Assembly: GCA_014382695.1 (NCBI GenBank)
Contig: JACNJF010000194.1
Location: forward strand, 861 to 64,860
DNA from: Gammaproteobacteria bacterium
GTDB taxonomy: Bacteria; Pseudomonadota; Gammaproteobacteria; GCA-001735895
Length of the DNA stretch: 64,000 nucleotides
Direction of reading: 5' to 3'
Made by a program: the position numbers and the translations under genes. This document shows positions 1 through 36,656 of this stretch, in pieces. The notes under the pieces were generated by a model that worked only from the letters and a program-made list of their open reading frames with translations, had not been told where the DNA came from and did no database searches. Within the stretch, counting starts at the first letter, position 1. Every line of letters starts with the position of its first letter.

Positions 1-284
1 GTAGTGCGGTATTCATGGAAGAGCAAGGCCATGCTTTGAATATGCGATATAGCCGACGCAAACACAATATTATCTGGTCCGATGATGTGCTGACGCAGGA
101 GGCGCTGGATTGTCTGGATGGGTTTCTGGAGTCGGACTCACCCTACCATGTACGCTACCGTCTGAATCAGGGCGAAGGTGTTATGTGTAATAATGTATTG
201 CATACACGCACTGCCTTTACCGACAGTGCTGAACATAAGCGAGTTTATTATCGGGCTCGATACTACAACCGAATTGAATGTTAG
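1..284 (+). CDS. TauD/TfdA-like (clavaminate-synthase-like) Fe(II)/2OG dioxygenase, C-terminal fragment; 5' end lies outside the window
   Basis: The ORF runs to the window edge with no in-frame stop. The C-terminal pattern GEGVMCNNVLHTRTAF...KRVYYRARY resembles the TauD-family motif W.PGD.V.WDNR...H.R.A...R...R. Confidence 0.45.
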   Translation, partial: SAVFMEEQGHALNMRYSRRKHNIIWSDDVLTQEALDCLDGFLESDSPYHVRYRLNQGEGVMCNNVLHTRTAFTDSAEHKRVYYRARYYNRIEC

Positions 285-503: not shown

Positions 504-1196
504 ATGTACTGGCAGGAAGATCAGGATAAAGGTGAGCACTTCGTTGTTCCAGATGATGTAGTGGACCTACTGTTCAGTATCGAGTGCAGAGATCTGCCGC
601 TGGATCATGGCTTTGTACTGTCACAGCAGATCATAAAAAATCTGCCCTGGATACAGGAAGAGCCGCAGGCAGGCATCCATCAGATACATGTGGCCGAATC
701 GGCGAATGGCTGGATGCGTCCGGAAAATACTGAAACCGAAGTGCTGTGTGTTTCTCGTCGTACTAAAATGACACTACGATTGCCAGCCAGCAGACTGGAT
801 GAGGCAACAGCATTGACTGGAAAAACGCTCGACATACAGGGCCATGCGTTGACGGTAGGGCGTTTCTCTACCCGCAAACTGAGTCGATTAACCACTATAT
901 TTGCGCGTTATGTGGATACCCTCGGTAGCGATGACGAAACCGAGTTCCTGGAGTCGATGCAGCAACAACTGTTGCAGAAAGGCATCCGGGTTAAGAAGAT
1001 GATGAGTGGAAGGCTGCTCACCCATCAAAGCGATGAAGGCATCATCCTCACCCGTAAACTGATGGTTAGCGACCTGACCGTTGAAGAGTCTGTGCTGCTG
1101 CAGGAGCAGGGCATAGGCGACCGAAAATTAATGGGAATGGGTATCTTTATGCCACATAAGGGCATAGATGCGGTGAATAAAAAGCAGGAAGGCTAG
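504..1196 (+). CDS. hypothetical protein with a Cas6/RAMP-like C-terminal glycine-rich loop (GIGDRKLMGMGIF)
   Basis: A strong SD (AGCAGGGGAG) lies 7 nt upstream of the ATG. The C-terminal motif QEQGIGDRKLMGMGIFMP closely resembles the CasE G-loop GIGPAKSMGCGLL and the Cas6f G-loop GLSKGGFVPWF. No cas genes or repeats are nearby. Confidence 0.6.
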   Translation: MYWQEDQDKGEHFVVPDDVVDLLFSIECRDLPLDHGFVLSQQIIKNLPWIQEEPQAGIHQIHVAESANGWMRPENTETEVLCVSRRTKMTLRLPASRLDEATALTGKTLDIQGHALTVGRFSTRKLSRLTTIFARYVDTLGSDDETEFLESMQQQLLQKGIRVKKMMSGRLLTHQSDEGIILTRKLMVSDLTVEESVLLQEQGIGDRKLMGMGIFMPHKGIDAVNKKQEG

Positions 1197-1301
1197 TCAC
1201 TTACTATAACCAATGGGATAAGTGACTTTTCTAAAAACTTGTGGGAAAGTACTGCCCGAATTATTCCATTGATAACAACTTAACGATATTGAGGCATACC
1301 T

Positions 1302-1622
1302 ATGGCACTTGAGTCAGTCGAAAGAACAGAAAAAGGTTACCTGGTCAATTCAAATGACTGGAATGAAGAAATCGCAGCAGAGCTTTTTGCAGAAGAAGGC
1401 ATTACTCCTACCAAAGAACACTGGGATATCATCAAGTACGTGCGTGAGGAAACGCTGGGTGGAGATGAGCCGAATGAGCGTAGCATCATGAAAGCGATGG
1501 GCAAGATCTGGGGGCGCAAGGTGAGCTCGAAGGAAATGTATGAAATGTTTCCCCTTATGCCGTCCAAGCAGGGTCTGAAGATTGGTGGTTGTCCGCAAAG
1601 TACCCGTAAAGGCGGTTATTGA
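1302..1622 (+). CDS. tusE: TusE/DsrC-family sulfur relay protein
   Basis: The sequence aligns with E. coli TusE: EGYL..W.E..A...AE.EGI.....HW....VR, then the LFP/MFP motif followed by KQGLKIGG-C. The Cys is conserved but the C-terminus is extended relative to canonical GLPKPxxC-x. Confidence 0.7.
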   Translation: MALESVERTEKGYLVNSNDWNEEIAAELFAEEGITPTKEHWDIIKYVREETLGGDEPNERSIMKAMGKIWGRKVSSKEMYEMFPLMPSKQGLKIGGCPQSTRKGGY

Positions 1623-1769
1623 TTCAAGATTTTCTGTGAGAGTATTGCTGAAGTAGTGGATAAAAAGGTATTTTCTACCACCTTAGTAATAGTGACGTAA
1701 AGCGACTATTCGCTTACTCTTTCGCCATCTTACAGGTTTATTAGCACACAGTTTGCAGAGGAAGAATTT

Positions 1770-1973
1770 ATGAGCGACAAAGCGGCAAAGATTCAAGAGC
1801 TGATCGAAATGCAGAAAAAATTTATTGCATACGAACAAAAAAATGGCGTTAACTTCAAAGACTATTTCACACCAGAAGCTGGTCATGAGTTAGATGGTTA
1901 CCGTCAATCTTATATGGATAAGGCGATGGAACTGGTCGATATTGCGCATGCGGAAAAAGGATCGCATCGTTAA
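1770..1973 (+). CDS. hypothetical small protein (67 aa)
   Basis: ORF is followed directly by a rho-independent terminator, with a purine-rich region upstream (GCAGAGGAAGAA). Confidence 0.45.
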   Translation: MSDKAAKIQELIEMQKKFIAYEQKNGVNFKDYFTPEAGHELDGYRQSYMDKAMELVDIAHAEKGSHR

Positions 1974-2190: not shown

Positions 2191-5100
2191 ATGATTTTAG
2201 CGCAACCATTAACTCGACCGGATATAGGGATGCATCAGTCTATCTCTGTTGGCATCAATGGCTTATTCCATGATCTCGAATATAGTTTAAGTTTACTTTT
2301 CAATATATTGATTTATTTAGTATTTGTATCAATATTTCTGCTGTCTTCTGTTGCATTTGCCAATCAGGCACCTGGTTTTGTGGCAACCTCTTTACTACGC
2401 GTAGCCCTCGATGATAACTATCCACCATACGTCATGCGTAGGACTGATGGTTCAGTTGAAGGTTACCTGATCGATGAATGGAAGTTGTGGGAAGCTAAAA
2501 CCGGTGTCAAAGTCGAGCTGATTGCGACGGACTGGGCGCAGGCAAAAAAAAACATGGCAGAGGGCCGCTCCGATGTGATTGATACTATCTTCCGCACGTC
2601 TGAGAGGGAAACCCGACTGGAATTCAGTGCGCCATACGCGACCTTGCCCGTTTCCATCTATACGATTTCGAAACTGCTCGGTATCAATGATATCAACGGA
2701 CTGGAAGGCTTTCGGGTGGGTGTAAAGGATGGTGATGCCTGTGTCGACAGGCTGCGTGCCGGCGGAATTACCGATATAAAGCCTTATACCGATTATGAAA
2801 CCCTGTTGCAGGCAGTTCTGGCTGAGAAGGTGCATGTTTTCTGTATGGATGATCCCCCTGCCAATTATCTTATTTTCCGGGCTGGAGCCGAACACAAGCT
2901 ACTCAAGGCTTTTAGCCTGTATAGCGGAGAGTTTCATCGTGCCGTGCGCAAAGGTGATAGCGCGACTCTGGCTCTGGTTGAGTCGGGATTTGCAGCGATT
3001 ACAGCGCCTGAGCGTGAAGCGTTGCAGGATAAGTGGATGGGACAGAGCCTGCAAAATCCATTGCTACGCAATCTCATTTATTACCTTGTTATTGCTGCGA
3101 TCCTGGCGGTGTTACTGCTGGTCGTATCACTCATACTTCGCCATCTGGTGAGAGTACGCACAGCCGCTCTGGTCACTTCACAAAATAAACTGCAGGCGAC
3201 ACTGGATGCGTTACCGGACCTCTTGTTTGAGATGGATATCAACGGGTGTTATCTCGCTTACCACTCTCCCCGCACCGATTTACTGGCGCTTCCTGTCGAG
3301 CATTTTCTGGGCAAGAAAAACGATGAATTATTGCCGCCCGAAGTGGCTAAAATTGGCATGGAGGCAATACAAGAAGCCGCACAAATGGGCTTTTCCTCGG
3401 GCCGCCAGTTTGAGTTAAGGCTCGGTGGTGTGATTCACTGGTTTGAGCTATCGGTTGCTCGAAAATCGGGTGAGGCTGGCAAACTTCCTTCCTTCGTCGT
3501 ACTTTCTCGTGATATCACCTCACGTAAGCTGGCAGAGTTACAGGTTGCCCGTTTGACCCGTCTATACGCAGCCTTAAGTCAGTGCAACCAGGCGATAGTA
3601 CGTTGCACAACTGAAGCTGAGCTGTTTACCCAGATTTGCCGCGATGCGGTGAATTTTGGTGGGATGAAAATGGCCTGGATCGGTTTGATGGACGAAACCA
3701 CCAACAGTGTTAATCCAGTGGCCGCTTTTGGCGAGGGAATTAAGTATCTGGAGGGACTGGAGATTTCCCTGGATGCGAATTCAGCCAGTGGTCGTGGCCC
3801 GACCGGAATCGCCTTACGCGAAGACCGGCCTTACTGGTGCCAGGATTTTGAGCAGGATCCGGCTACTGCACTTTGGCATGAGCGCGCTGCAGAGTTTGGC
3901 TGGAAATCATCGGCGGCATTACCTCTTTACCGCAACAATATCATCATCGGTGCCTTTAATCTGTATGAAGATAGTGTCGATGCGTTTGATGAGGCCGCGC
4001 AAAACCTGCTGGTCGAAATGGCAACCGATATCAGCTATGCGCTGACCAATTTTGCCCATCAGCAAGCGCGCCAGCAGGCGGAACATGAACGTGAACAGTT
4101 GCTGCAACGAGAACAGCAGGCACGCAATGAAGCCGATAAAACGCGCCGGACCATCAGCGATATCATCGGTAGAATCAGTGATGGCTTCGTCGCACTGGAC
4201 AGAAACTGGTGCTACACCTATGTCAATTCTCAGGCTGCTGAGATGTTTGATCGTAGCGTAGAACAACTAGTCGGTAAGCATATCTGGACAGAGTTCCCCG
4301 AAGGGGTGGGGCAAAAATTTCAACTGGCCTACGAAAAAGCGATGCATGAGCAGAAACCAGCTTTTTTTGAGGAGTATTATCCACCTTATAAGCGCTGGTT
4401 TGAGAATCACATCTATCCATCCCCGGATGGGATATCGATTTACTTTCACGATGTCACCGAACGCAAGCGCATAGAGCAGGCATTACGCGAAAGTGAACAG
4501 GCTTACCGCGCTACTTTTGAGCAGGCCGCTGTGGGTATTGCAAATGTAGCAGCCGATGGGACCTGGCTCGAGGTTAATAACCGGCTGGCTGAGATTGTCG
4601 GCTATACGCATGATGAGTTACTCGAGTTGACCTTTCAGGACATCACGCATCCGGCTGATCTACAGAAAGATCTGGACAGTGTGCATCGGTTACTGGCTGG
4701 AGAAATCGATACCTACAAAATGGAGAAGCGCTATATCCGTAAGTCAGGTGACTTCATATGGATACAGTTAACTGCTTCGCTGGTGAAAAATGATGACGGA
4801 TCGCCCAAATACTTTATTTCAGTAATAGAGGATATCCATCAGCGTAAACTTGATGAGGTTCAATTGCATAAATTGTCGATCGTGGTTGAGCAAAGCCCCA
4901 ATCCCATCATGATTACCGATCTGGACACCAAGATTGAGTATGTGAATGCAGCTTTCAATCAAGTCTCCGGTTACAGTTCAGACGAAGCGCTGGGGAAAAC
5001 ACCGCAATTATTAAAATCAGGCGAGACTCCCATCGAGGTCTATCAGGATATGTGGGCACATCTTTTACGCGGTGAGGTATGGCGTGGAGAACTAACCAAT

Positions 5101-6531
5101 CAACGCAAGGATGGCAGCGTGTATGACGAGCTGGCGATCATTTCGCCGGTGCGTGATGCCAATGGAACTATCACCAATTATCTCGGCATCAAGGAAAACA
5201 TTACCGAGAAAAAGCATGCTGAAGCGCGCATTCAGCAACTGGCCTATTTTGACCAACTCACCGGCCTGCCCAATCGCAGCCAGTTGATTGACCGCTTCAA
5301 TTCTGCACTCAGTTTTGCGCAACGTAATACTGAGAAATTGGCGCTCATGTTTCTGGATCTGGATCATTTCAAGAATATCAATGACACCCTGGGGCATAGT
5401 ATTGGAGATAAATTACTGGTAAAGGTTGCGCACCGGCTTAAACGTATCCTGCGCGAAGAGGACACTTTATCGAGGCTGGGCGGTGATGAGTTCATCCTGT
5501 TATTGCCAAATACCGAGGAAGATGAAGCGCGCCAGATTGCGATTAAACTGATTGAAGCGATTGCTCTACCGTTTCAGCTTGATCAGTATGAACTGGGAAG
5601 TACGCTGTCGATAGGTATTGCGATCTACCCGCTTGATGGCGAAGACTTTGAAACACTGCTACGCAATGCGGATACCGCAATGTACCGGGTGAAACAGGCC
5701 GCGCGTAACGATTTCTGTTTCTTTACCGAGGAGATGCAACTGCATTCTGCGCGCGCATTGAAACTACTGAATGCATTACGTCATGCGCTGGCACGGAATG
5801 AACTGCAGCTACATTATCAGCCACAAATAGAGTTGGTCAGTGGAAGGGTGATTGGTGCGGAAGCCTTACTGCGTTGGAACAATGCTGAGCTGGGTATGAT
5901 TTCACCGGCTGAGTTTATCCCGATTGCGGAAGAGAGTGGACTGATTTTACCGATCGGTGAATGGGTGTTGCGCAGCGCAGTGACTCAGATGAAGCGCTGG
6001 ATGGATGACGGCCTGGCACCGATTGTCGTAGCCGTGAATCTGTCCGTGGTGCAGTTTCGTCATCCTAATCTGACCGACCTGGTCACACGGATACTGAAAC
6101 AGGCTGGTTTGCCGGCGCAGTATCTGGAGCTGGAGTTGACCGAGGCGGTTGCGATGAAAGATCCACAGGGTGCTATTGGAGTGATGAACCGATTGCATGA
6201 GCAAGGTATCCAGATGTCGATCGATGACTTTGGAACCGGTTATTCCAGTTTGAGTTATCTAAAGAAATTCAAGATTGCCAAACTCAAAATCGACCAGTCA
6301 TTTGTACGCGATATTATTGATGATCCGGATGATAGGGCGATTGTGGTTGCGATCATCAATCTGGCCCGTAGTCTGGGTATCCAAACCCTTGCCGAAGGGG
6401 TCGAAACGGAGCATCAGCAGTCACTCCTGCAGGCCCAGGGCTGTGATGAAGTGCAGGGTTATTACTACAGCAGACCGCTGCCGGCGGATCAGTTTGAAGC
6501 CTATGTGCGGAATAAGACAGGCTTAAATTGA
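2191..6531 (+). CDS. sensor diguanylate cyclase/phosphodiesterase: periplasmic SBP (family 3)-like domain, TM, GAF/PAS, three PAS/PAC, GGDEF, EAL
   Basis: Signal/TM segment LIYLVFVSIFLLSSVAFA. A solute-binding-like domain precedes a second TM. The GGDEF motif RLGGDEF is intact with an RxxD I-site (REED), and the EAL motifs EALLRW and DDFGTGYSSL are intact. The true start may lie downstream of 2191. Confidence 0.9.
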   Translation: MILAQPLTRPDIGMHQSISVGINGLFHDLEYSLSLLFNILIYLVFVSIFLLSSVAFANQAPGFVATSLLRVALDDNYPPYVMRRTDGSVEGYLIDEWKLWEAKTGVKVELIATDWAQAKKNMAEGRSDVIDTIFRTSERETRLEFSAPYATLPVSIYTISKLLGINDINGLEGFRVGVKDGDACVDRLRAGGITDIKPYTDYETLLQAVLAEKVHVFCMDDPPANYLIFRAGAEHKLLKAFSLYSGEFHRAVRKGDSATLALVESGFAAITAPEREALQDKWMGQSLQNPLLRNLIYYLVIAAILAVLLLVVSLILRHLVRVRTAALVTSQNKLQATLDALPDLLFEMDINGCYLAYHSPRTDLLALPVEHFLGKKNDELLPPEVAKIGMEAIQEAAQMGFSSGRQFELRLGGVIHWFELSVARKSGEAGKLPSFVVLSRDITSRKLAELQVARLTRLYAALSQCNQAIVRCTTEAELFTQICRDAVNFGGMKMAWIGLMDETTNSVNPVAAFGEGIKYLEGLEISLDANSASGRGPTGIALREDRPYWCQDFEQDPATALWHERAAEFGWKSSAALPLYRNNIIIGAFNLYEDSVDAFDEAAQNLLVEMATDISYALTNFAHQQARQQAEHEREQLLQREQQARNEADKTRRTISDIIGRISDGFVALDRNWCYTYVNSQAAEMFDRSVEQLVGKHIWTEFPEGVGQKFQLAYEKAMHEQKPAFFEEYYPPYKRWFENHIYPSPDGISIYFHDVTERKRIEQALRESEQAYRATFEQAAVGIANVAADGTWLEVNNRLAEIVGYTHDELLELTFQDITHPADLQKDLDSVHRLLAGEIDTYKMEKRYIRKSGDFIWIQLTASLVKNDDGSPKYFISVIEDIHQRKLDEVQLHKLSIVVEQSPNPIMITDLDTKIEYVNAAFNQVSGYSSDEALGKTPQLLKSGETPIEVYQDMWAHLLRGEVWRGELTNQRKDGSVYDELAIISPVRDANGTITNYLGIKENITEKKHAEARIQQLAYFDQLTGLPNRSQLIDRFNSALSFAQRNTEKLALMFLDLDHFKNINDTLGHSIGDKLLVKVAHRLKRILREEDTLSRLGGDEFILLLPNTEEDEARQIAIKLIEAIALPFQLDQYELGSTLSIGIAIYPLDGEDFETLLRNADTAMYRVKQAARNDFCFFTEEMQLHSARALKLLNALRHALARNELQLHYQPQIELVSGRVIGAEALLRWNNAELGMISPAEFIPIAEESGLILPIGEWVLRSAVTQMKRWMDDGLAPIVVAVNLSVVQFRHPNLTDLVTRILKQAGLPAQYLELELTEAVAMKDPQGAIGVMNRLHEQGIQMSIDDFGTGYSSLSYLKKFKIAKLKIDQSFVRDIIDDPDDRAIVVAIINLARSLGIQTLAEGVETEHQQSLLQAQGCDEVQGYYYSRPLPADQFEAYVRNKTGLN

Positions 6532-6547: not shown

Positions 6548-7219
6548 TTAAAGTTCGACCCAGCGCCGCACCAGATTATTAAAGGTAGCACTAATCTTAC
6601 GGGTCGCTTCTGAGTTGGGTAATTCTTTATACAGCATTTCACGTGCCTGATTCAGCTCGTAAAGCATTTCGCGTTTTGCTGGATCGCGCACGGTACTTTG
6701 TGACCAGGTGACCGCAACCAGTCGAACTCCACTGGTAACCGGCGCGACATAATGACGACTATGCGACGGGTACATCACTGCAGAACCGGCTTGCAGCTTG
6801 ATCTGCCTTTCACCATAGCTATCCATGATGGTCAGTTCGCCCCCTTCATAGTCTTCCGGATCGGATAAGAAAATGGTGGTTGAGACATCGGTGCGGTAGA
6901 GTTCTCCCTGACCCATGATCGGATCATCGACATGTTCACCATACGCCATACCCTGTTCATAACGCACATAAAACGGGGCCGCGACACGTTTTGGCCACAC
7001 CACCGCCTTAAATTTCGGGTGGCGCACCAGGTTACCCATTACCAATTCATTGAGTTCATTAAAATGGCTCGATTGCGGATTCATTTCCTGATTATTTTTG
7101 ACCCCCCTGGCCATCATGCCTGCAGAAAGCCTGCCATCGACGAAAGGGGAATCCTGCAGTAACTGCCTTATTTTAGTCAGGTTTTGTGCGGATATAAGGT
7201 GATCAATAGAAGCTAACAT
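6548..7219 (-). CDS. ybiX: PKHD-type Fe(II)/2OG hydroxylase (YbiX/PiuC-like)
   Basis: Length of about 223 aa and overall similarity to the YbiX family (2OG-Fe(II) oxygenase fold). Confidence 0.75.
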   Translation of the reverse strand: MLASIDHLISAQNLTKIRQLLQDSPFVDGRLSAGMMARGVKNNQEMNPQSSHFNELNELVMGNLVRHPKFKAVVWPKRVAAPFYVRYEQGMAYGEHVDDPIMGQGELYRTDVSTTIFLSDPEDYEGGELTIMDSYGERQIKLQAGSAVMYPSHSRHYVAPVTSGVRLVAVTWSQSTVRDPAKREMLYELNQAREMLYKELPNSEATRKISATFNNLVRRWVEL

Positions 7220-7253
7220 AGGTATAATGACTCAAAAATTGACAGGAAAACGC

Positions 7254-7574
7254 ATGATACTGAATATCCTAATTGAAGACCAAAGTTATCCCGTGGAAGT
7301 GCCGGAGGCGATTGTGATGGAAGCCGGTGATTATTTTCAGACTCTGGACAAAGATATGGACAAGGGCTGGCAGATGAGTCGAAGCTGGGTGGATAAGCCC
7401 AATGTCGAGCAGCGTTGTCAGATCGTGGCCGACCGGATTCTGGGTGCATTTGAGCAGGAAAATAAAGCCTCACTGGTGATGCTGTCGGCGTATATCCTGT
7501 CGCGCTACCCGAGCGTGAAGAGCGTTTCGATTAGTACCGATGGTGAAATGCAGGAAACTTCTTTCGACTTTTAA
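7254..7574 (+). CDS. hypothetical protein
   Basis: An ORF-track ATG sits at 7227. A better start is at 7254, which has AGGAAA 3 nt upstream. The gene is divergent from the ybiX-like gene. Confidence 0.45.
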   Translation: MILNILIEDQSYPVEVPEAIVMEAGDYFQTLDKDMDKGWQMSRSWVDKPNVEQRCQIVADRILGAFEQENKASLVMLSAYILSRYPSVKSVSISTDGEMQETSFDF

Positions 7575-8657: not shown

Positions 8658-9034
8658 GTTTTTCTCAATAGCGCTTACGTGCGATAGTTTATTGTTTAAA
8701 ACGACCACTTCAGTGCAAAGCTGACAGTCTATTTTAAGAAAGTCTGGTTATTTAAATTACTCACGCTTCCAGAGGTGCGCCATTTAATTCTGGATGTTAT
8801 AGGAAACAGGGGTTTCAGGCATTATCGCCAGGTGTCTACTATCTACCAATGGCTCTTTCTTCTTTTATCCACGTTAAGCCCTGTAATTTTCAATTTAACA
8901 GTGGTTTAAACTCTAAATGTCTCACTACATGAAGGCGTTCAACAAAATTATTAGCAAGTAGCCACAAGTTATTAGAACAGGAATAAGTCTCATTTATACT
9001 GCATCCATTCATAGTCACCCACCAGGTATACAGT

Positions 9035-11302
9035 ATGTCCGAAGATTTTCGCGAAAAAGCACTTGAATACCATCAATTTCCAACCCCCGGTAAATTATGT
9101 ATTCAGTCTACCGTACCTTTAACCACTCAGCGGGATCTGGCGCTAGCGTATTCGCCCGGAGTGGCTTATGCCTGTGAAGAGATTGAAAAGGATCCGTTGA
9201 AAGCGAGTGACTATACCGCGCGTGCCAATCTGGTTGGCGTCATAACGAATGGTACTGCAGTACTGGGTCTGGGTGCTATTGGCCCACTGGCCTCCAAGCC
9301 GGTGATGGAAGGGAAGGCGGTACTATTCAAGAAATTTGCCAATATCGATGTGTTTGATATCGAGATCAAGGAAGAGGATCCGATCAAGCTGGCGCAGACG
9401 ATCGAACGTCTGGAGCCTACCTTCGGCGGCATCAATCTGGAAGATATCAAGGCACCCGAATGCTTCATCGTGGAAGAGTATCTGCGTAAACATATGTCGA
9501 TACCGGTATTTCATGATGATCAGCATGGTACCGCGATCGTGGTTGCTGCCGCTTTAACCAGCGCCCTGGAGCTGGTTGGCAAGCCGATCGATAAGATCAA
9601 GCTGGTCTCATCCGGCGCAGGTGCAGCCGCGTTGGCCTGTCTTAACCTGCTGGTTTCGATGGGGCTGCCACGCGAAAATGTGATTGTCACGGATATCGAT
9701 GGCGTAGTTTATAAGGGCCGGGTGAAAGGGGCCGATCCGTATAAAGATCGCTATGCGGTGGACACTCCACATCGTACCCTGGCCGATGCCATCGCAGGTG
9801 CCGATGTATTTCTTGGCCTGTCAGCGGCGAATGTGCTGAAGCCTGCAATGCTGAAAACTATGGCCGAGCAGCCGGTCGTGTTCGCACTGGCGAATCCTAA
9901 CCCGGAAATTAATCCACTCGATGCGGTCAAGGTGCGTGATGATTTAATCATTGCAACCGGCCGTTCAGATTTTCCAAATCAGGTTAATAACGTGCTGTGT
10001 TTTCCTTTTCTTTTCCGCGGTGCGCTCGATGTCGGGGCCACCGAAATCAATGAAGAAATGAAGATTGCAGCGGTACATGCCATCTCGCGTCTGGCACGCG
10101 CCGGCAGTACTTCGGATATCGTCAGTTCTGCGTATGCGGGACAGTCACTACGCTTTGGACGCGAGTACCTGATACCAAAGCCGTTTGACCCACGTCTGAT
10201 CATTGAAATCGCGAGTGCAGTGGCACAGGCCGCGATGGACTCTGGTGTAGCCACCCGACCCATTGCTAATATGGCTGAGTATCGCGATAAGTTAACCAGT
10301 TTTGTGTATCGCTCTGGTTTGATCATGAAGCCAGTCTTTGAGCTGGCCAGAAACAGCCAGAAAAAGGTCGTTTTCCCAGAAGGTGAAAACCTGAAGGTGT
10401 TACAGGCGGTTGAAAATATTGTGCAGGATCGGCTCGCATTTCCGATTTTGTTAGGTCGCCCCGAGATCATCAAGGCGCAGATCAGCGAATATGGTTTGAG
10501 CATGCAGGAAGGGCGTGATTTTCAGATTATTTACGATACTGATGTCGAGAAATACGCCAGCAGCTATTACCAGATCATGCACAGACGAGGCGTCACCCTG
10601 ATGGAAGCAGAATCTCTGGTGCTGTCGAGTACTACGCTACAGGCCGCATTGATGGTTAAGCTGGGCGAAGCGGATACCTTTATCTGTGGTTCGATCGGTC
10701 GTTTCAATCAGCACCTGAAGCAGGTGATGGATGTTGCCGAACAACCGGATGGTGAGCAGCATATCTCGACTTTGAATGTGCATATATTAAATACCGGCAC
10801 TATCTTCATCTGCGATACCCAGGTCACGGTAAATCCGGCTGCTGAAGATATTGCTCAAATGGCGATAGCGGGTGCACGTGAAGTCGAACGTTTTGGAATC
10901 AAGCCACAGGTGGCGCTGCTATCGCACTCCAATTTTGGTAACCGAGATTCTGCTTCGGCCAGAAAAATGCGTGAAGCACTGGCTATCATTCGTAAACTGG
11001 ATCCAACGCTGGAAGTTGATGGTGAAATGCAAGCTGAATCGGCACTCTCTGCGGCTAAGCGCGGTGAAAAATTTGCCGATTCCAATCTGCAGGGTGCGGC
11101 TAATTTACTGGTGATGCCAAATCTGGACGCGGGTAATATCACCTCTAGCGTGTTACATGTGCTGGGCGGCGGAGTTTCCATCGGTCCTATTTTGATGGGC
11201 TGCAAGCTGGCCGGACATGTGGTGAATTCATCGATCAGTGTACGCGGCCTGGTGAATATGACCGTGGTTGCAGTGGCGCAGACTATTCAAGCTGCAAACT
11301 AA
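9035..11302 (+). CDS. maeB: NADP-dependent malic enzyme (malic enzyme domain plus phosphotransacetylase-like domain)
   Basis: The 755-aa product has a malic-enzyme N-terminal half and a PTA-like C-terminal half, which is the typical MaeB architecture. Confidence 0.95.
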   Translation: MSEDFREKALEYHQFPTPGKLCIQSTVPLTTQRDLALAYSPGVAYACEEIEKDPLKASDYTARANLVGVITNGTAVLGLGAIGPLASKPVMEGKAVLFKKFANIDVFDIEIKEEDPIKLAQTIERLEPTFGGINLEDIKAPECFIVEEYLRKHMSIPVFHDDQHGTAIVVAAALTSALELVGKPIDKIKLVSSGAGAAALACLNLLVSMGLPRENVIVTDIDGVVYKGRVKGADPYKDRYAVDTPHRTLADAIAGADVFLGLSAANVLKPAMLKTMAEQPVVFALANPNPEINPLDAVKVRDDLIIATGRSDFPNQVNNVLCFPFLFRGALDVGATEINEEMKIAAVHAISRLARAGSTSDIVSSAYAGQSLRFGREYLIPKPFDPRLIIEIASAVAQAAMDSGVATRPIANMAEYRDKLTSFVYRSGLIMKPVFELARNSQKKVVFPEGENLKVLQAVENIVQDRLAFPILLGRPEIIKAQISEYGLSMQEGRDFQIIYDTDVEKYASSYYQIMHRRGVTLMEAESLVLSSTTLQAALMVKLGEADTFICGSIGRFNQHLKQVMDVAEQPDGEQHISTLNVHILNTGTIFICDTQVTVNPAAEDIAQMAIAGAREVERFGIKPQVALLSHSNFGNRDSASARKMREALAIIRKLDPTLEVDGEMQAESALSAAKRGEKFADSNLQGAANLLVMPNLDAGNITSSVLHVLGGGVSIGPILMGCKLAGHVVNSSISVRGLVNMTVVAVAQTIQAAN

Positions 11303-36431: not shown

Positions 36432-36656
36432 AACATTCTCCTCAAATTCAGACGATAAAAAAAGATTATTTGGCGCTGTAGCGCACTCGTAAGAATTGCC
36501 ACAGGCCGAAAAATGTGAGTATTTTACTAGAAAAAACGCAGTTTATAATATCTCTATTGGGAGTATGCGTGGATTTACGTCCCATCAGGGATATTCGAAT
36601 AATAATGAATAATGATTATTATTATCAACAGTTTATTTATCAGGAGTATATATTTG

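What the first reader, a model, noticed from the sequence alone, without database searches (positions are those of the whole stretch)
504..1196. Orphan Cas6-like (RAMP glycine-rich loop) protein with no CRISPR-Cas locus
The C-terminal segment EESVLLQEQGIGDRKLMGMGIFMPHKGI resembles the signature G-rich loop that closes the Cas6 ferredoxin fold (CasE: QQGIGPAKSMGCGLLSL; Cas6f: EEGGFTCYGLSKGGFVPWF). The N-terminal region DVVDLLFSIECRDLPLDHGFVLSQ loosely resembles the first strand and helix of Cas6f. I found no direct repeats in the flanking 1.2 kb and no other cas genes. The neighbour is a TusE/DsrC-like gene. A stand-alone Cas6-fold RNA-binding protein would be unusual.
Basis: inference. Interest (0 to 1): 0.5.

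Follow-up and report, generated by a model that had tools for sequence, protein, structure and literature searches.

The report
Cas6-like protein in sulfur-oxidation locus
The gene encodes a real Cas6-fold protein, but it belongs to a large branch of that family that has left CRISPR immunity and is a fixed part of a small gene cassette next to the sulfur-oxidation (dsr) genes of sulfur bacteria, where its job is still unknown.

Summary

The gene lies in a conserved cassette: TauD-like dioxygenase (dsrQ), a 62-aa protein, the Cas6-like protein, a cysteine-less DsrC-like protein and a 67-aa protein. The cassette is transcribed divergently from dsrABEFHCMKL.

This arrangement recurs in about 90 loci, down to 33% Cas6 identity, including cultured Thiorhodovibrio.

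Compared with CRISPR-linked relatives, this clade:
- keeps the G-rich loop, His59, Arg92 and Arg135;
- lacks a basic beta-hairpin;
- has gained an NGW loop and a PHKGI tail;
- is acidic (median pI 6.1 versus 9.25).

I read it as an exapted Cas6. It most likely still handles RNA, as a post-transcriptional factor for the dsr regulon, but this is inferred. A protein-adaptor role is a serious rival. Databases label the clade "type I-MYXAN CRISPR-associated", which is misleading. I found no paper describing the dsr link.

The parts
15..284 (+). 3' part of the TauD-like Fe(II)/2-oxoglutarate dioxygenase gene ('dsrQ'). The full gene is 292 aa and starts about 594 nt before the window.
   Evidence: PF02668 TauD on the fragment. 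The full-length gene in L006 8903..9781 matches PF02668 at E=4.8e-19. The HxD...H...R metal and 2OG motifs are conserved in 50 orthologues. It lies upstream of the Cas6-like gene in 56 of 63 loci with enough flank. tauD/dsrQ next to dsrA is noted in PMC7596348.
297..485 (+). p62: a 62-aa acidic protein of unknown family. It ends 18 nt before the Cas6-like start codon and is in the same frame.
   Evidence: No hit in Pfam, NCBIfam or PADLOC. It is present directly upstream of the Cas6-like gene in 76 of 83 loci, with a typical gap of 4-40 nt. Eleven residues are invariant across 16 diverse orthologues (A4).
504..1196 (+). Cas6-like protein, 230 aa, of the dsr-linked clade of PF09559 (the finding itself).
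   Evidence: Profile matches. Structure and fold matches. Clade-specific residues.
1205..1220 (.). TATAACCAATGGGATA, a degenerate copy (2 mismatches) of the TATCCC-N4-GGGATA box. It lies in the Cas6-like / DsrC-like intergenic region.
   Evidence: Found (6 window matches against 1.9 expected). The block is conserved in the close clade (alignment).
1302..1622 (+). DsrC/TusE-family protein, 106 aa, lacking both canonical C-terminal cysteines (RspA-like class). The conserved C-terminus is ...PSKQGxKIAGLP(E/Q)S(R/T)RKGGY.
   Evidence: PF04358 E=1.1e-23 and TIGR03342. C-termini were compared with the true DsrC of the same loci, which ends ...KQACKYAGLPKPTGCV. It lies downstream of the Cas6-like gene in 50 of 56 loci.
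1676..1691 (.). TACCACCTTAGTAATA, a weak copy (4 mismatches) of the same box, 79 nt upstream of the p67 start.
   Evidence: In 34 of 46 DsrC-like/p67 intergenic regions the best site has 3 or fewer mismatches, against about 5% of shuffled sequences. The sites sit at a consistent distance of about 60-130 nt from the p67 start.
1770..1973 (+). p67: a 67-aa protein of unknown family, the last gene of the cassette.
   Evidence: No family hit. Present in 35 of 42 loci with enough flank. Orthologues are listed.
6548..7219 (-). PKHD-type (YbiX-like) Fe(II)/2OG hydroxylase, a recurrent neighbour of the cassette. In this window the 2191..6531 GGDEF/EAL gene separates it from p67.
   Evidence: PF13640 plus PF18331, and NCBIfam NF003974 at 246.9 bits. 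Its orthologue cluster occurs in 32 loci and also in L092, L093 and L098.
7227..7574 (+). 115-aa protein of unknown family, divergent from the hydroxylase and another recurrent neighbour.
   Evidence: Its orthologue cluster occurs in 15 loci. The GWQMSR and QRCQIVAD motifs are conserved. No family hit.

Best explanation
SHOWN
- The gene encodes a two-RRM Cas6-fold protein of the Cmx6 lineage.
- It belongs to a large, separate, non-CRISPR clade.
- Its gene is a fixed member of this cassette: TauD-like dsrQ, p62, Cas6-like, cysteine-less DsrC-like, p67.
- The cassette is transcribed divergently from the reverse dissimilatory sulfite reductase operon dsrABEFHCMKL of sulfur-oxidising Gammaproteobacteria.

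INFERRED
- It is an exapted Cas6 that no longer makes crRNA but still acts on RNA.
- It probably works with the closely coupled p62 (an 18-nt gap separates the two genes).
- It binds, and may cut (His59 is retained), a specific site in transcripts of the dsr regulon or of the cassette itself.
- In that way it would tune expression of the sulfur-oxidation machinery after transcription.
- The cysteine-less DsrC-like neighbour and/or an unidentified factor would act at the conserved TATCCC-N4-GGGATA box in the shared promoter region.
For: Family and fold:
- Profile matches.
- Structure and fold matches.

Non-CRISPR context:
- Window and upstream flank.
- A true relative, for contrast, sits in TniQ / Cas6 / DevT(Cas8) / Cas7 / Cas5 next to a 7-repeat array.

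Linkage to dsr over 87 loci:
- p62 in 76 of 83 loci.
- TauD-like gene in 56 of 63.
- Divergent dsrA or dsrE in 38 of 41.
- DsrC-like gene in 50 of 56.
- p67 in 35 of 42.
- The order holds at 33-36% Cas6 identity (L092, L097).
- It also holds in cultured Thiorhodovibrio.
- A more distant branch still pairs the gene with DsrC and a rhodanese.

Retention of the ancestral chemistry:
- The residues shared by 382 dsr-type and 100 CRISPR-type proteins include the histidine at the usual Cas6 catalytic position (His59, 94% versus 99%).
- They also include Arg92 (99% and 99%), Arg135 (96% and 100%), and the LQxxGxG...GxF loop.

Precedent, from my own knowledge of Grimm et al. 2010/2011 (not read here): dsr genes in Allochromatium vinosum are subject to post-transcriptional control.
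Against: - The clade lacks the 13+4-residue basic hairpin insert (DGTPQRRQLTI...) that the CRISPR-type proteins carry in the second RRM.
- It is acidic, with median pI 6.1 against 9.25.
- His59 is replaced by Q, Y, L and other residues in about 6% of members.
- I found no RNA element with covariation.
- The one striking hairpin-capable motif (TATCCC-N4-GGGATA) behaves more like a DNA operator. Its degenerate copies keep the GGGATA half-site but not the pairing, and all variation in the main copy is one-sided.
- The clade-specific invariant residues (W3, H35, W49, H62, the NGW-RP loop, R86, H218-K219) point to a new binding surface whose ligand is unknown.
Confidence: 0.42

Rival explanations
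1. Protein adaptor or allosteric subunit. The Cas6 fold has been reused as a protein-binding module with no RNA role. It would form a complex with p62 and the cysteine-less DsrC-like protein, and perhaps with DsrAB or DsrEFH. It would modulate sulfur transfer or enzyme activity.
For: - The basic hairpin is lost and the protein is acidic; p62, the DsrC-like protein and p67 are acidic too.
- Many new invariant surface-type residues and a flexible NGW loop with pLDDT below 50.
- Tight coupling to small partner genes.
- The distant branch sits with DsrC and a rhodanese, which are sulfur-transfer proteins.
- Precedent in the same pathway: DsrD has a winged-helix 'DNA-binding' fold but is an allosteric activator of DsrAB (PMC8794893).
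Against: - The candidate catalytic His and the two arginines shared with true Cas6 remain under strong conservation. A pure adaptor would not need that.
- No known Cas6 homologue works without RNA.
Confidence: 0.3
2. DNA-binding regulator. The Cas6-like protein itself, as a dimer, recognises the TATCCC-N4-GGGATA inverted repeat and controls the divergent dsr and cassette promoters.
For: - The box is found between dsrA and the cassette in about 45 loci. Only 3 of the 48 matches in 692 kb lie elsewhere.
- Weaker copies precede the DsrC-like and p67 genes.
- No classical transcription factor is encoded in the cassette.
Against: - No Cas6 or RAMP protein is known to read double-stranded DNA.
- The DsrC-family neighbour is the more obvious candidate. 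From my own knowledge, it carries a helix-turn-helix-like motif and DsrC is reported to bind dsr promoter DNA.
- The protein is acidic.
Confidence: 0.1
3. Ordinary crRNA endonuclease. It would serve a CRISPR array and cas operon located elsewhere in the genome, and the dsr neighbourhood would be coincidental.
For: - NCBI and JGI annotate it as type I-MYXAN Cas6/Cmx6.
- It passes the curated NCBIfam cut-off.
- The full genome could not be scanned.
Against: - The dsr context recurs in about 90 loci across 33-100% identity. No cas gene or array was seen in any of them.
- The clade differs from CRISPR-linked members in diagnostic inserts and in charge. Cross-clade identity has a median of 26% and a maximum of 37.5%.
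- Nothing was found in viral contigs.
Confidence: 0.03

Closest known systems
Cas6/Cmx6 of type I-B (MYXAN) CRISPR-Cas and type I-B CRISPR-associated transposons (PDB 8fcj/8fcu chain B; Pfam PF09559; TIGR02807)
   Same: - Shared residues: F24, D34, P48, His59, R92, R135, and the S..LQ..G.G.....G.F.P glycine-rich loop.
   Different: - No CRISPR array and no Cas8/Cas7/Cas5 neighbours.
- Only about 24-26% identity.
- Lacks the basic hairpin insert.
- Has an extra G-W-x-R-P loop, an N-terminal M(Y/F)WQ motif, an LPW motif and a C-terminal PHKGIDAV motif.
- Acidic rather than basic.
tauD/dsrQ gene upstream of dsrA in aerobic sulfur oxidisers (Lenk et al. 2012, as cited in PMC7596348 and PMC9371685)
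   Same: The first gene of the cassette here is that TauD-like gene, divergent from dsrA.
   Different: The passages I retrieved from those two papers (term searches; 'Cas6' and 'CRISPR' do not occur in either) mention only tauD/dsrQ. The four genes downstream of it, including the Cas6-like gene, are not mentioned there. Lenk et al. itself was not available.
DsrD of sulfate reducers
   Same: A small protein with a nucleic-acid-binding fold, encoded next to dsrAB. It turned out to act on the enzyme rather than on DNA (PMC8794893). It serves as a model for the adaptor rival.
   Different: It has an unrelated fold (winged helix), occurs in reductive rather than oxidative Dsr systems, and its function was tested experimentally.
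DsrC/TusE/RspA family (for the neighbouring gene)
   Same: PF04358 fold. The cysteine-less class is known as RspA-like and has been suggested to be regulatory (family named in PMC8477390; the regulatory suggestion is from my own knowledge of Venceslau et al. 2014).
   Different: This subgroup has its own invariant ...RKGGY C-terminus and a fixed position after the Cas6-like gene.
Stand-alone CRISPR-repeat-like regulatory RNAs bound by Cas proteins (bioRxiv 10.1101/2023.03.03.530964, seen, abstract only)
   Same: The concept of a Cas protein plus a single repeat-like element used for gene regulation.
   Different: Those elements lie inside CRISPR-cas loci. Here there is no cas locus, and no RNA element has been demonstrated.

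Membership tests
Cas6 superfamily, PF09559 / TIGR02807 (Cmx6 lineage) | Profile match above the curated threshold over the full length | tested here: met
   Pfam 193.9 bits against 26.7. NCBIfam 123.4 bits against 98.85. PADLOC Cas6 E=6.6e-57.
Cas6 superfamily, PF09559 / TIGR02807 (Cmx6 lineage) | Tandem ferredoxin-like (RRM) fold closed by a glycine-rich loop | tested here: met
   [not shown]
Cas6 superfamily, PF09559 / TIGR02807 (Cmx6 lineage) | Histidine at the catalytic position after helix 1 | tested here: met
   His59 aligns with the His of GIHPI in CRISPR-type members. It is conserved in 94% of 382 dsr-type sequences. Activity itself was not tested.
Cas6 superfamily, PF09559 / TIGR02807 (Cmx6 lineage) | Basic RNA-gripping hairpin and overall basic charge | tested here: not met
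   The insert is absent in the dsr-type (A3). Median pI is 6.1 against 9.25.
Cas6 superfamily, PF09559 / TIGR02807 (Cmx6 lineage) | Site-specific cleavage of CRISPR repeat RNA | not testable with these tools
   Needs biochemistry. No repeat is available in the locus.
Type I-B / I-MYXAN CRISPR-Cas system (the database label) | Encoded with Cas8b/DevT, Cas7, Cas5 (and Cas3, Cas1, Cas2) next to a CRISPR array | tested here: not met
   None are present in the window or in 10 kb upstream. No cas Pfam family was listed for any called gene of L006-L011, L092-L095, L097, L098 or L101; the other loci were not screened for cas genes or arrays. The positive control L096 has all of them.
dsr (reverse dissimilatory sulfite reductase) gene neighbourhood | Conserved position beside dsrAB/dsrEFHC across distant genomes | tested here: met
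   Divergent dsrA or dsrE in 38 of 41 loci with enough flank. The position holds at 33-36% identity and in Thiorhodovibrio.
dsr (reverse dissimilatory sulfite reductase) gene neighbourhood | Functional requirement for sulfur oxidation | not testable with these tools
   Needs genetics.
DsrC proper (for the neighbour at 1302..1622) | Two conserved cysteines in the C-terminal arm (CysB-x10-CysA) | tested here: not met
   The C-terminus is ...KIGGCPQSTRKGGY. The single Cys is lineage-specific, with L or M in other orthologues.

The most novel reading that the evidence does not exclude
The cassette is a domesticated 'Cas6 plus one repeat' pair. In this reading the Cas6-like protein recognises the near-invariant 6-bp / 4-nt-loop hairpin UAUCCC-NNNN-GGGAUA, and its weaker copies ahead of the DsrC-like and p67 genes. 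The hairpin has the same size as a Cas6 substrate (the true relative's repeat hairpin is 5 bp plus a tetraloop). Binding or cutting there would switch the sulfur-oxidation regulon on or off. This would be a CRISPR-type RNA-recognition device reused to control core energy metabolism.
Probability: 0.12. Interest if true: 0.85.

Novelty: new variant of a known kind. Interest (0 to 1): 0.62.

Why it matters
For CRISPR biology, this is a large clade of a Cas protein living entirely outside CRISPR-Cas: 2704 clusters at 90% identity match its Thiohalocapsa member. It is either an exaptation or a glimpse of what Cas6 did before CRISPR. It also shows that the automatic label "type I-MYXAN CRISPR-associated" is wrong in context for most of the family. 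That label could inflate CRISPR counts in sulfur-oxidiser genomes.

For sulfur microbiology, the finding defines a five-gene cassette next to dsrAB. Two further genes recur near it, and a near-invariant operator-like box sits beside it. In the literature I could read, only the first gene (tauD/dsrQ) has been noticed. The cassette is present in cultivable purple sulfur bacteria, so it can be tested directly. It may explain how dsr expression is controlled.

Tried and rejected
- **Canonical CRISPR role.** Rejected on context and on clade-specific sequence differences (see rivals).
- **RNA hairpins in the Cas6/DsrC-like and DsrC-like/p67 spacers.** Single-sequence folds are not conserved between loci. 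The hairpin after the Cas6 stop codon in the window (GTCACTTA...TAAGTGAC) is absent in the 87%-identical locus L012.
- **G/C hairpins after dsrC.** They are present in many loci but differ in sequence and look like ordinary attenuators.
- **Promoter/terminator scan of the cassette.** It found fewer promoter-like sites than chance and nothing useful.
- **Rfam at permissive threshold on the cassette.** Only chance-level hits.
- **Second Cas6 or Cas11 in the extra gene.** I tested whether the extra 231-253-aa gene seen in some loci is one of these. BLAST against the Cas6-like protein found nothing. A Cse2 hit at E=0.019 is below threshold and was not reproduced by PDB or NCBIfam profiles.
- **p62 as a DUF6967 member.** DUF6967 is the small gene at the same position in the distant branch. 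hhalign gave probability 0.3%, so this is unsupported.
- **Covariation in the TATCCC-N4-GGGATA box.** The arms are almost invariant and all variants are one-sided transitions, so it is uninformative.
- **Organism names from cluster look-up.** None were returned.
- **AFDB fold library.** Not installed.
- **Lenk et al. 2012.** Not held.
- **Literature searches** for Cas6/Cmx6 with dsr, for orphan Cas6, for family accessions and for Allochromatium locus tags found nothing relevant.

Full report
**1.

Window 504..1196 (+) is an ATG-initiated ORF of 230 aa. A GGGGAG run sits a few bases upstream.

The protein matches Cas6 profiles strongly:
- Pfam PF09559 'Cas6' end to end: E=3.6e-57, 193.9 bits, cut-off 26.7.
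- NCBIfam TIGR02807 cas6_cmx6: 123.4 bits against a cut-off of 98.85.
- Several PADLOC Cas6 profiles, best E=6.6e-57.
- The only solved structure found by sequence is the Cas6 subunit of a type I-B CRISPR-associated transposon, 8fcj_B (E=1.2e-10). It shares the GIH.I and LQEQGIG..K.M.GIF.P motifs.

The predicted structure agrees:
- An AlphaFold2 model built on 30 homologues is confident (pLDDT 86.9, pTM 0.83).
- Foldseek puts 8fcu_B and 8fcj_B first (E~6e-16, TM 0.74-0.80), followed only by Cas6 and Cas6e structures.

So this is a Cas6-fold protein of the Cmx6 / type I-B lineage. It is not close to Cas6f or Cas6e.

**2. 'Orphan' also holds within reach**

- The 64 kb window has no tandem or spaced repeats of CRISPR type.
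- It has no Rfam hit at gathering score.
- Gene-by-gene Pfam content shows no cas family. This rests on precomputed hits for the same genome region and on my own scans.
- The genes are ordinary housekeeping and signalling genes. They include sdhCDAB, iscRSU, ftsK, trxB, cysG, fumarase, and GGDEF/EAL sensors.
- The rest of the genome could not be examined.

**3.

The window begins inside the upstream gene. The identical protein (P0001) lies on a 115.7 kb metagenome contig. I fetched 10 kb upstream of the gene from it as locus L006, in which window position 1 corresponds to position 9498.

The gene order there is dsrL<dsrK<dsrM<dsrC<dsrH<dsrF<dsrE<dsrB<dsrA, then divergently:
- a TauD-like dioxygenase (292 aa);
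- a 62-aa protein (p62);
- the Cas6-like protein;
- a DsrC-like protein (106 aa);
- a 67-aa protein (p67).

The TauD-like gene upstream of dsrA has been noticed before and was called dsrQ (Lenk et al. 2012, as reported in PMC7596348, and PMC9371685). The genes after it are not mentioned there.

**4. The arrangement is conserved**

I collected 5 loci from reference genomes, 80 from metagenomes, and several more from exact-protein look-ups. tblastn with the cassette and Dsr proteins gave these counts over 87 loci, counting only loci with enough flank:

| Neighbour | Loci with it / loci with enough flank |
|---|---|
| p62 directly upstream | 76 / 83 |
| TauD-like gene | 56 / 63 |
| Divergent dsrA (or dsrE) | 38 / 41 |
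| DsrC-like gene downstream | 50 / 56 |
| p67 | 35 / 42 |

Further points on the distribution:
- The loci are metagenome contigs and are not all independent. Even so, their Cas6-like proteins span 39-100% identity to the window protein.
- The order also holds for representatives at 33% identity (L092) and 36% identity (L097), and for L098.
- It holds in the cultured purple sulfur bacterium Thiorhodovibrio (L101).
- Thiohalocapsa marina carries the protein too.
- In three loci the cassette abuts dsrEFHC directly, without dsrAB or TauD (L030, L031, L036).
- A more distant branch lacks the NGW insert. It has the order DUF6967 (73 aa), Cas6-like, then (seen for P0262; the P0270 contig ends too soon) DsrC and a rhodanese.
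- Exceptions: L004 is a lone copy beside rnc-era-recO, and L079 and L081 have no dsr genes within the flank.
- Two more genes recur nearby: a PKHD-type 2OG hydroxylase (window 6548..7219) in 32 loci, and a protein of about 110 aa (window 7227..7574) in 15 loci.

The family is large:
- 866 representatives at 50% identity with E<=1e-3, of which 158 have E<=1e-30.
- 2704 clusters at 90% identity with E<=1e-20 to the Thiohalocapsa member.
- None in viral contigs.

**5. How it differs from CRISPR-linked relatives**

As a control I retrieved cyanobacterial Cas6/Cmx6 proteins using the 8fcj_B sequence. One of them sits in TniQ / Cas6 / DevT(Cas8) / Cas7 / Cas5 beside a 7-repeat array.

I compared 382 dsr-type with 100 CRISPR-type sequences:

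| Category | Features |
|---|---|
| Shared by both | F24, D34, P48, His59 (94% vs 99%), R92, R135, S196, L199, Q200, G203, G205, G213, F215, P217 |
| dsr-type only | W3, H35, W49, H62, S66, an inserted G69-W70-x-R72-P73 loop (low model confidence), S84, R86, K165, G169, R184, G211, H218-K219 |
| CRISPR-type only | a 13+4-residue basic insert (DGTPQRRQLTI...) in the second RRM |
| Median pI | 6.1 (dsr-type) vs 9.25 (CRISPR-type) |
| Identity | cross-clade median 26%, maximum 37.5%; within the dsr-type median 42% |

**6. The neighbours**

- The DsrC-like protein lacks both canonical cysteines and ends in an invariant ...RKGGY. The true DsrC of the same loci ends ...KQACKYAGLPKPTGCV. [quoted passage not shown] It cannot carry sulfur in the usual way.
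- The TauD-like protein and the PKHD hydroxylase both keep their HxD...H...R motifs and are probably active oxygenases.
- p62, p67 and the ~110-aa protein match no family.

**7. A conserved cis element**

A near-invariant inverted repeat, TATCCC-N4-GGGATA, lies between dsrA and the cassette in about 45 loci. There are 48 matches with at most 1 mismatch in 692 kb of loci, and only 3 lie elsewhere.

- In L006 it is at 8815-8830. That is 146 nt upstream of the dsrA start codon, and about 75-90 nt upstream of the TauD start. This is about 670 nt left of the window.
- Thiorhodovibrio has it too.
- Degenerate copies precede p67. The best site has 3 or fewer mismatches in 34 of 46 spacers, against about 5% of shuffles, at a consistent distance.
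- In the close clade a degenerate copy also precedes the DsrC-like gene (window 1205-1220).

As RNA, the box would be a 6-bp stem with a tetraloop. That is the size of a Cas6 substrate; the control array's repeat hairpin is 5 bp plus a tetraloop.

However, the evidence leans the other way:
- The degenerate copies keep the GGGATA half-site without keeping pairing.
- The half-sites are 10 bp apart centre to centre.
- Variation in the main copy is one-sided only.

I therefore regard a DNA operator for a dimeric regulator as more likely than an RNA hairpin. It could be the DsrC-like protein. DsrC has a helix-turn-helix-like motif and has been reported to bind dsr promoter DNA; this is from my knowledge of Grimm et al. 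2010, not checked here. The data do not settle it.

**8. Mechanism**

Shown:
- Cas6 fold and family.
- Non-CRISPR context.
- Fixed membership of a dsr-adjacent cassette.
- Retention of the Cas6 core residues, loss of the basic hairpin, and gain of new invariant residues.

Inferred, with my best guess at about 0.4: the protein still binds, and perhaps cuts, a specific RNA. It would act with p62 as a post-transcriptional factor for the dsr regulon. The reasons are:
- The residues that both clades conserve include the histidine at the usual Cas6 catalytic position (His59), two arginines and the glycine-rich loop.
- Every close structural relative is an RNA-binding protein.

The main rival, at about 0.3, is a protein-adaptor or allosteric role. 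It is supported by the acidic charge, the lost hairpin and the new surface motifs. The DsrD precedent also supports it: a winged-helix fold that activates DsrAB (PMC8794893).

Direct DNA binding (about 0.1) and a canonical crRNA role (about 0.03) are less likely.

**9. Novelty**

The protein is already in databases, labelled 'type I-MYXAN CRISPR-associated protein Cas6/Cmx6'. The bare homology is therefore known.

I found no paper in the held library that links Cas6/Cmx6 to dsr loci or describes this cassette beyond tauD/dsrQ. Absence from that library is not proof of absence from the literature. Lenk et al. 2012 could not be read.

I rate it a new variant of a known kind: a Cas6 lineage exapted to, or ancestrally belonging to, a sulfur-oxidation gene neighbourhood.

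Noticed in passing
L006 8815-8830 (about 670 nt left of window position 1); also about 45 other loci, e.g. L101 7476-7491: A near-invariant inverted repeat, TATCCC-N4-GGGATA, lies in the divergent dsrA / cassette intergenic region. There are 48 matches with at most 1 mismatch in 692 kb of loci, and only 3 lie outside that region. It is a candidate operator, or an RNA hairpin, of the dsr regulon.
   Followed up: partly
L006 about 8740-8765; close-clade loci L010, L017-L023: A second palindrome, CTTGTAA-N4-7-TTACAAG, lies about 75-100 nt upstream of the dsrA start. In L021 the arms read CTTGCGG/CCGTAAG, a possible compensatory change (alignment).
   Followed up: no
window 36578-36593: CGTCCCATCAGGGATA (2 mismatches to the box) sits just upstream of a + strand gene run. 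The run is Sel1-like, MoxR-type AAA, DUF2201, a 372-aa unknown, CysG siroheme synthase, HPP and SulP. Siroheme is the DsrAB cofactor, so this run may belong to the same regulon. The window has 6 matches against 1.9 expected.
   Followed up: no
window 2191-6531: A 1446-aa SBP_bac_3-PAS-GAF-GGDEF-EAL signalling gene is inserted between p67 and the conserved PKHD hydroxylase. In L001 and many other loci these two are adjacent.
   Followed up: no
L101 9192-9929; L098 9295-9990; L092 6890-7651; L003 3977-4774: In Chromatiaceae and some other loci an extra 231-253-aa helical protein lies between p62 and the Cas6-like gene. It carries an invariant ETPDDADGAAVAA motif. It has no significant Pfam, NCBIfam or PDB match; a Cse2 hit at E=0.019 is below threshold.
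   Followed up: partly
L095 955-1805; unnamed contig of P0262: A distant branch of the family lacks the NGW insert. In both contigs a DUF6967 (73 aa) gene directly precedes the Cas6-like gene, and in the longer one (P0262) DsrC and a rhodanese follow. The link to sulfur-carrier genes is therefore older than the link to dsrAB.
   Followed up: partly
L004 9295-10669: The one lone copy (43% identity) is divergent from rnc (RNase III)-era-recO-pdxJ, with no dsr genes within 7-10 kb.
   Followed up: no
downstream of dsrC in L030, L037, L047, L052, L062, L072, L088, L090 and others: Strong G/C hairpins of the type GGGGGGAG-loop-CTCCCCCC, without a U tract, directly follow dsrC. They are probably attenuators or mRNA stabilisers.
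   Followed up: no
window 1302-1622 and orthologues: The cysteine-less DsrC-like proteins share an invariant C-terminal ...RKGGY. This is unlike DsrC (PTGCV) or TusE. The single Cys in the window's copy (GGCPQS) is lineage-specific.
   Followed up: partly
database annotation of P0001, P0028, P0393, P0430, P0488 etc.: NCBI and JGI name the whole dsr-linked clade 'type I-MYXAN CRISPR-associated protein Cas6/Cmx6', and some JGI entries even say 'Cas3'. None of the loci examined has a CRISPR context.
   Followed up: yes
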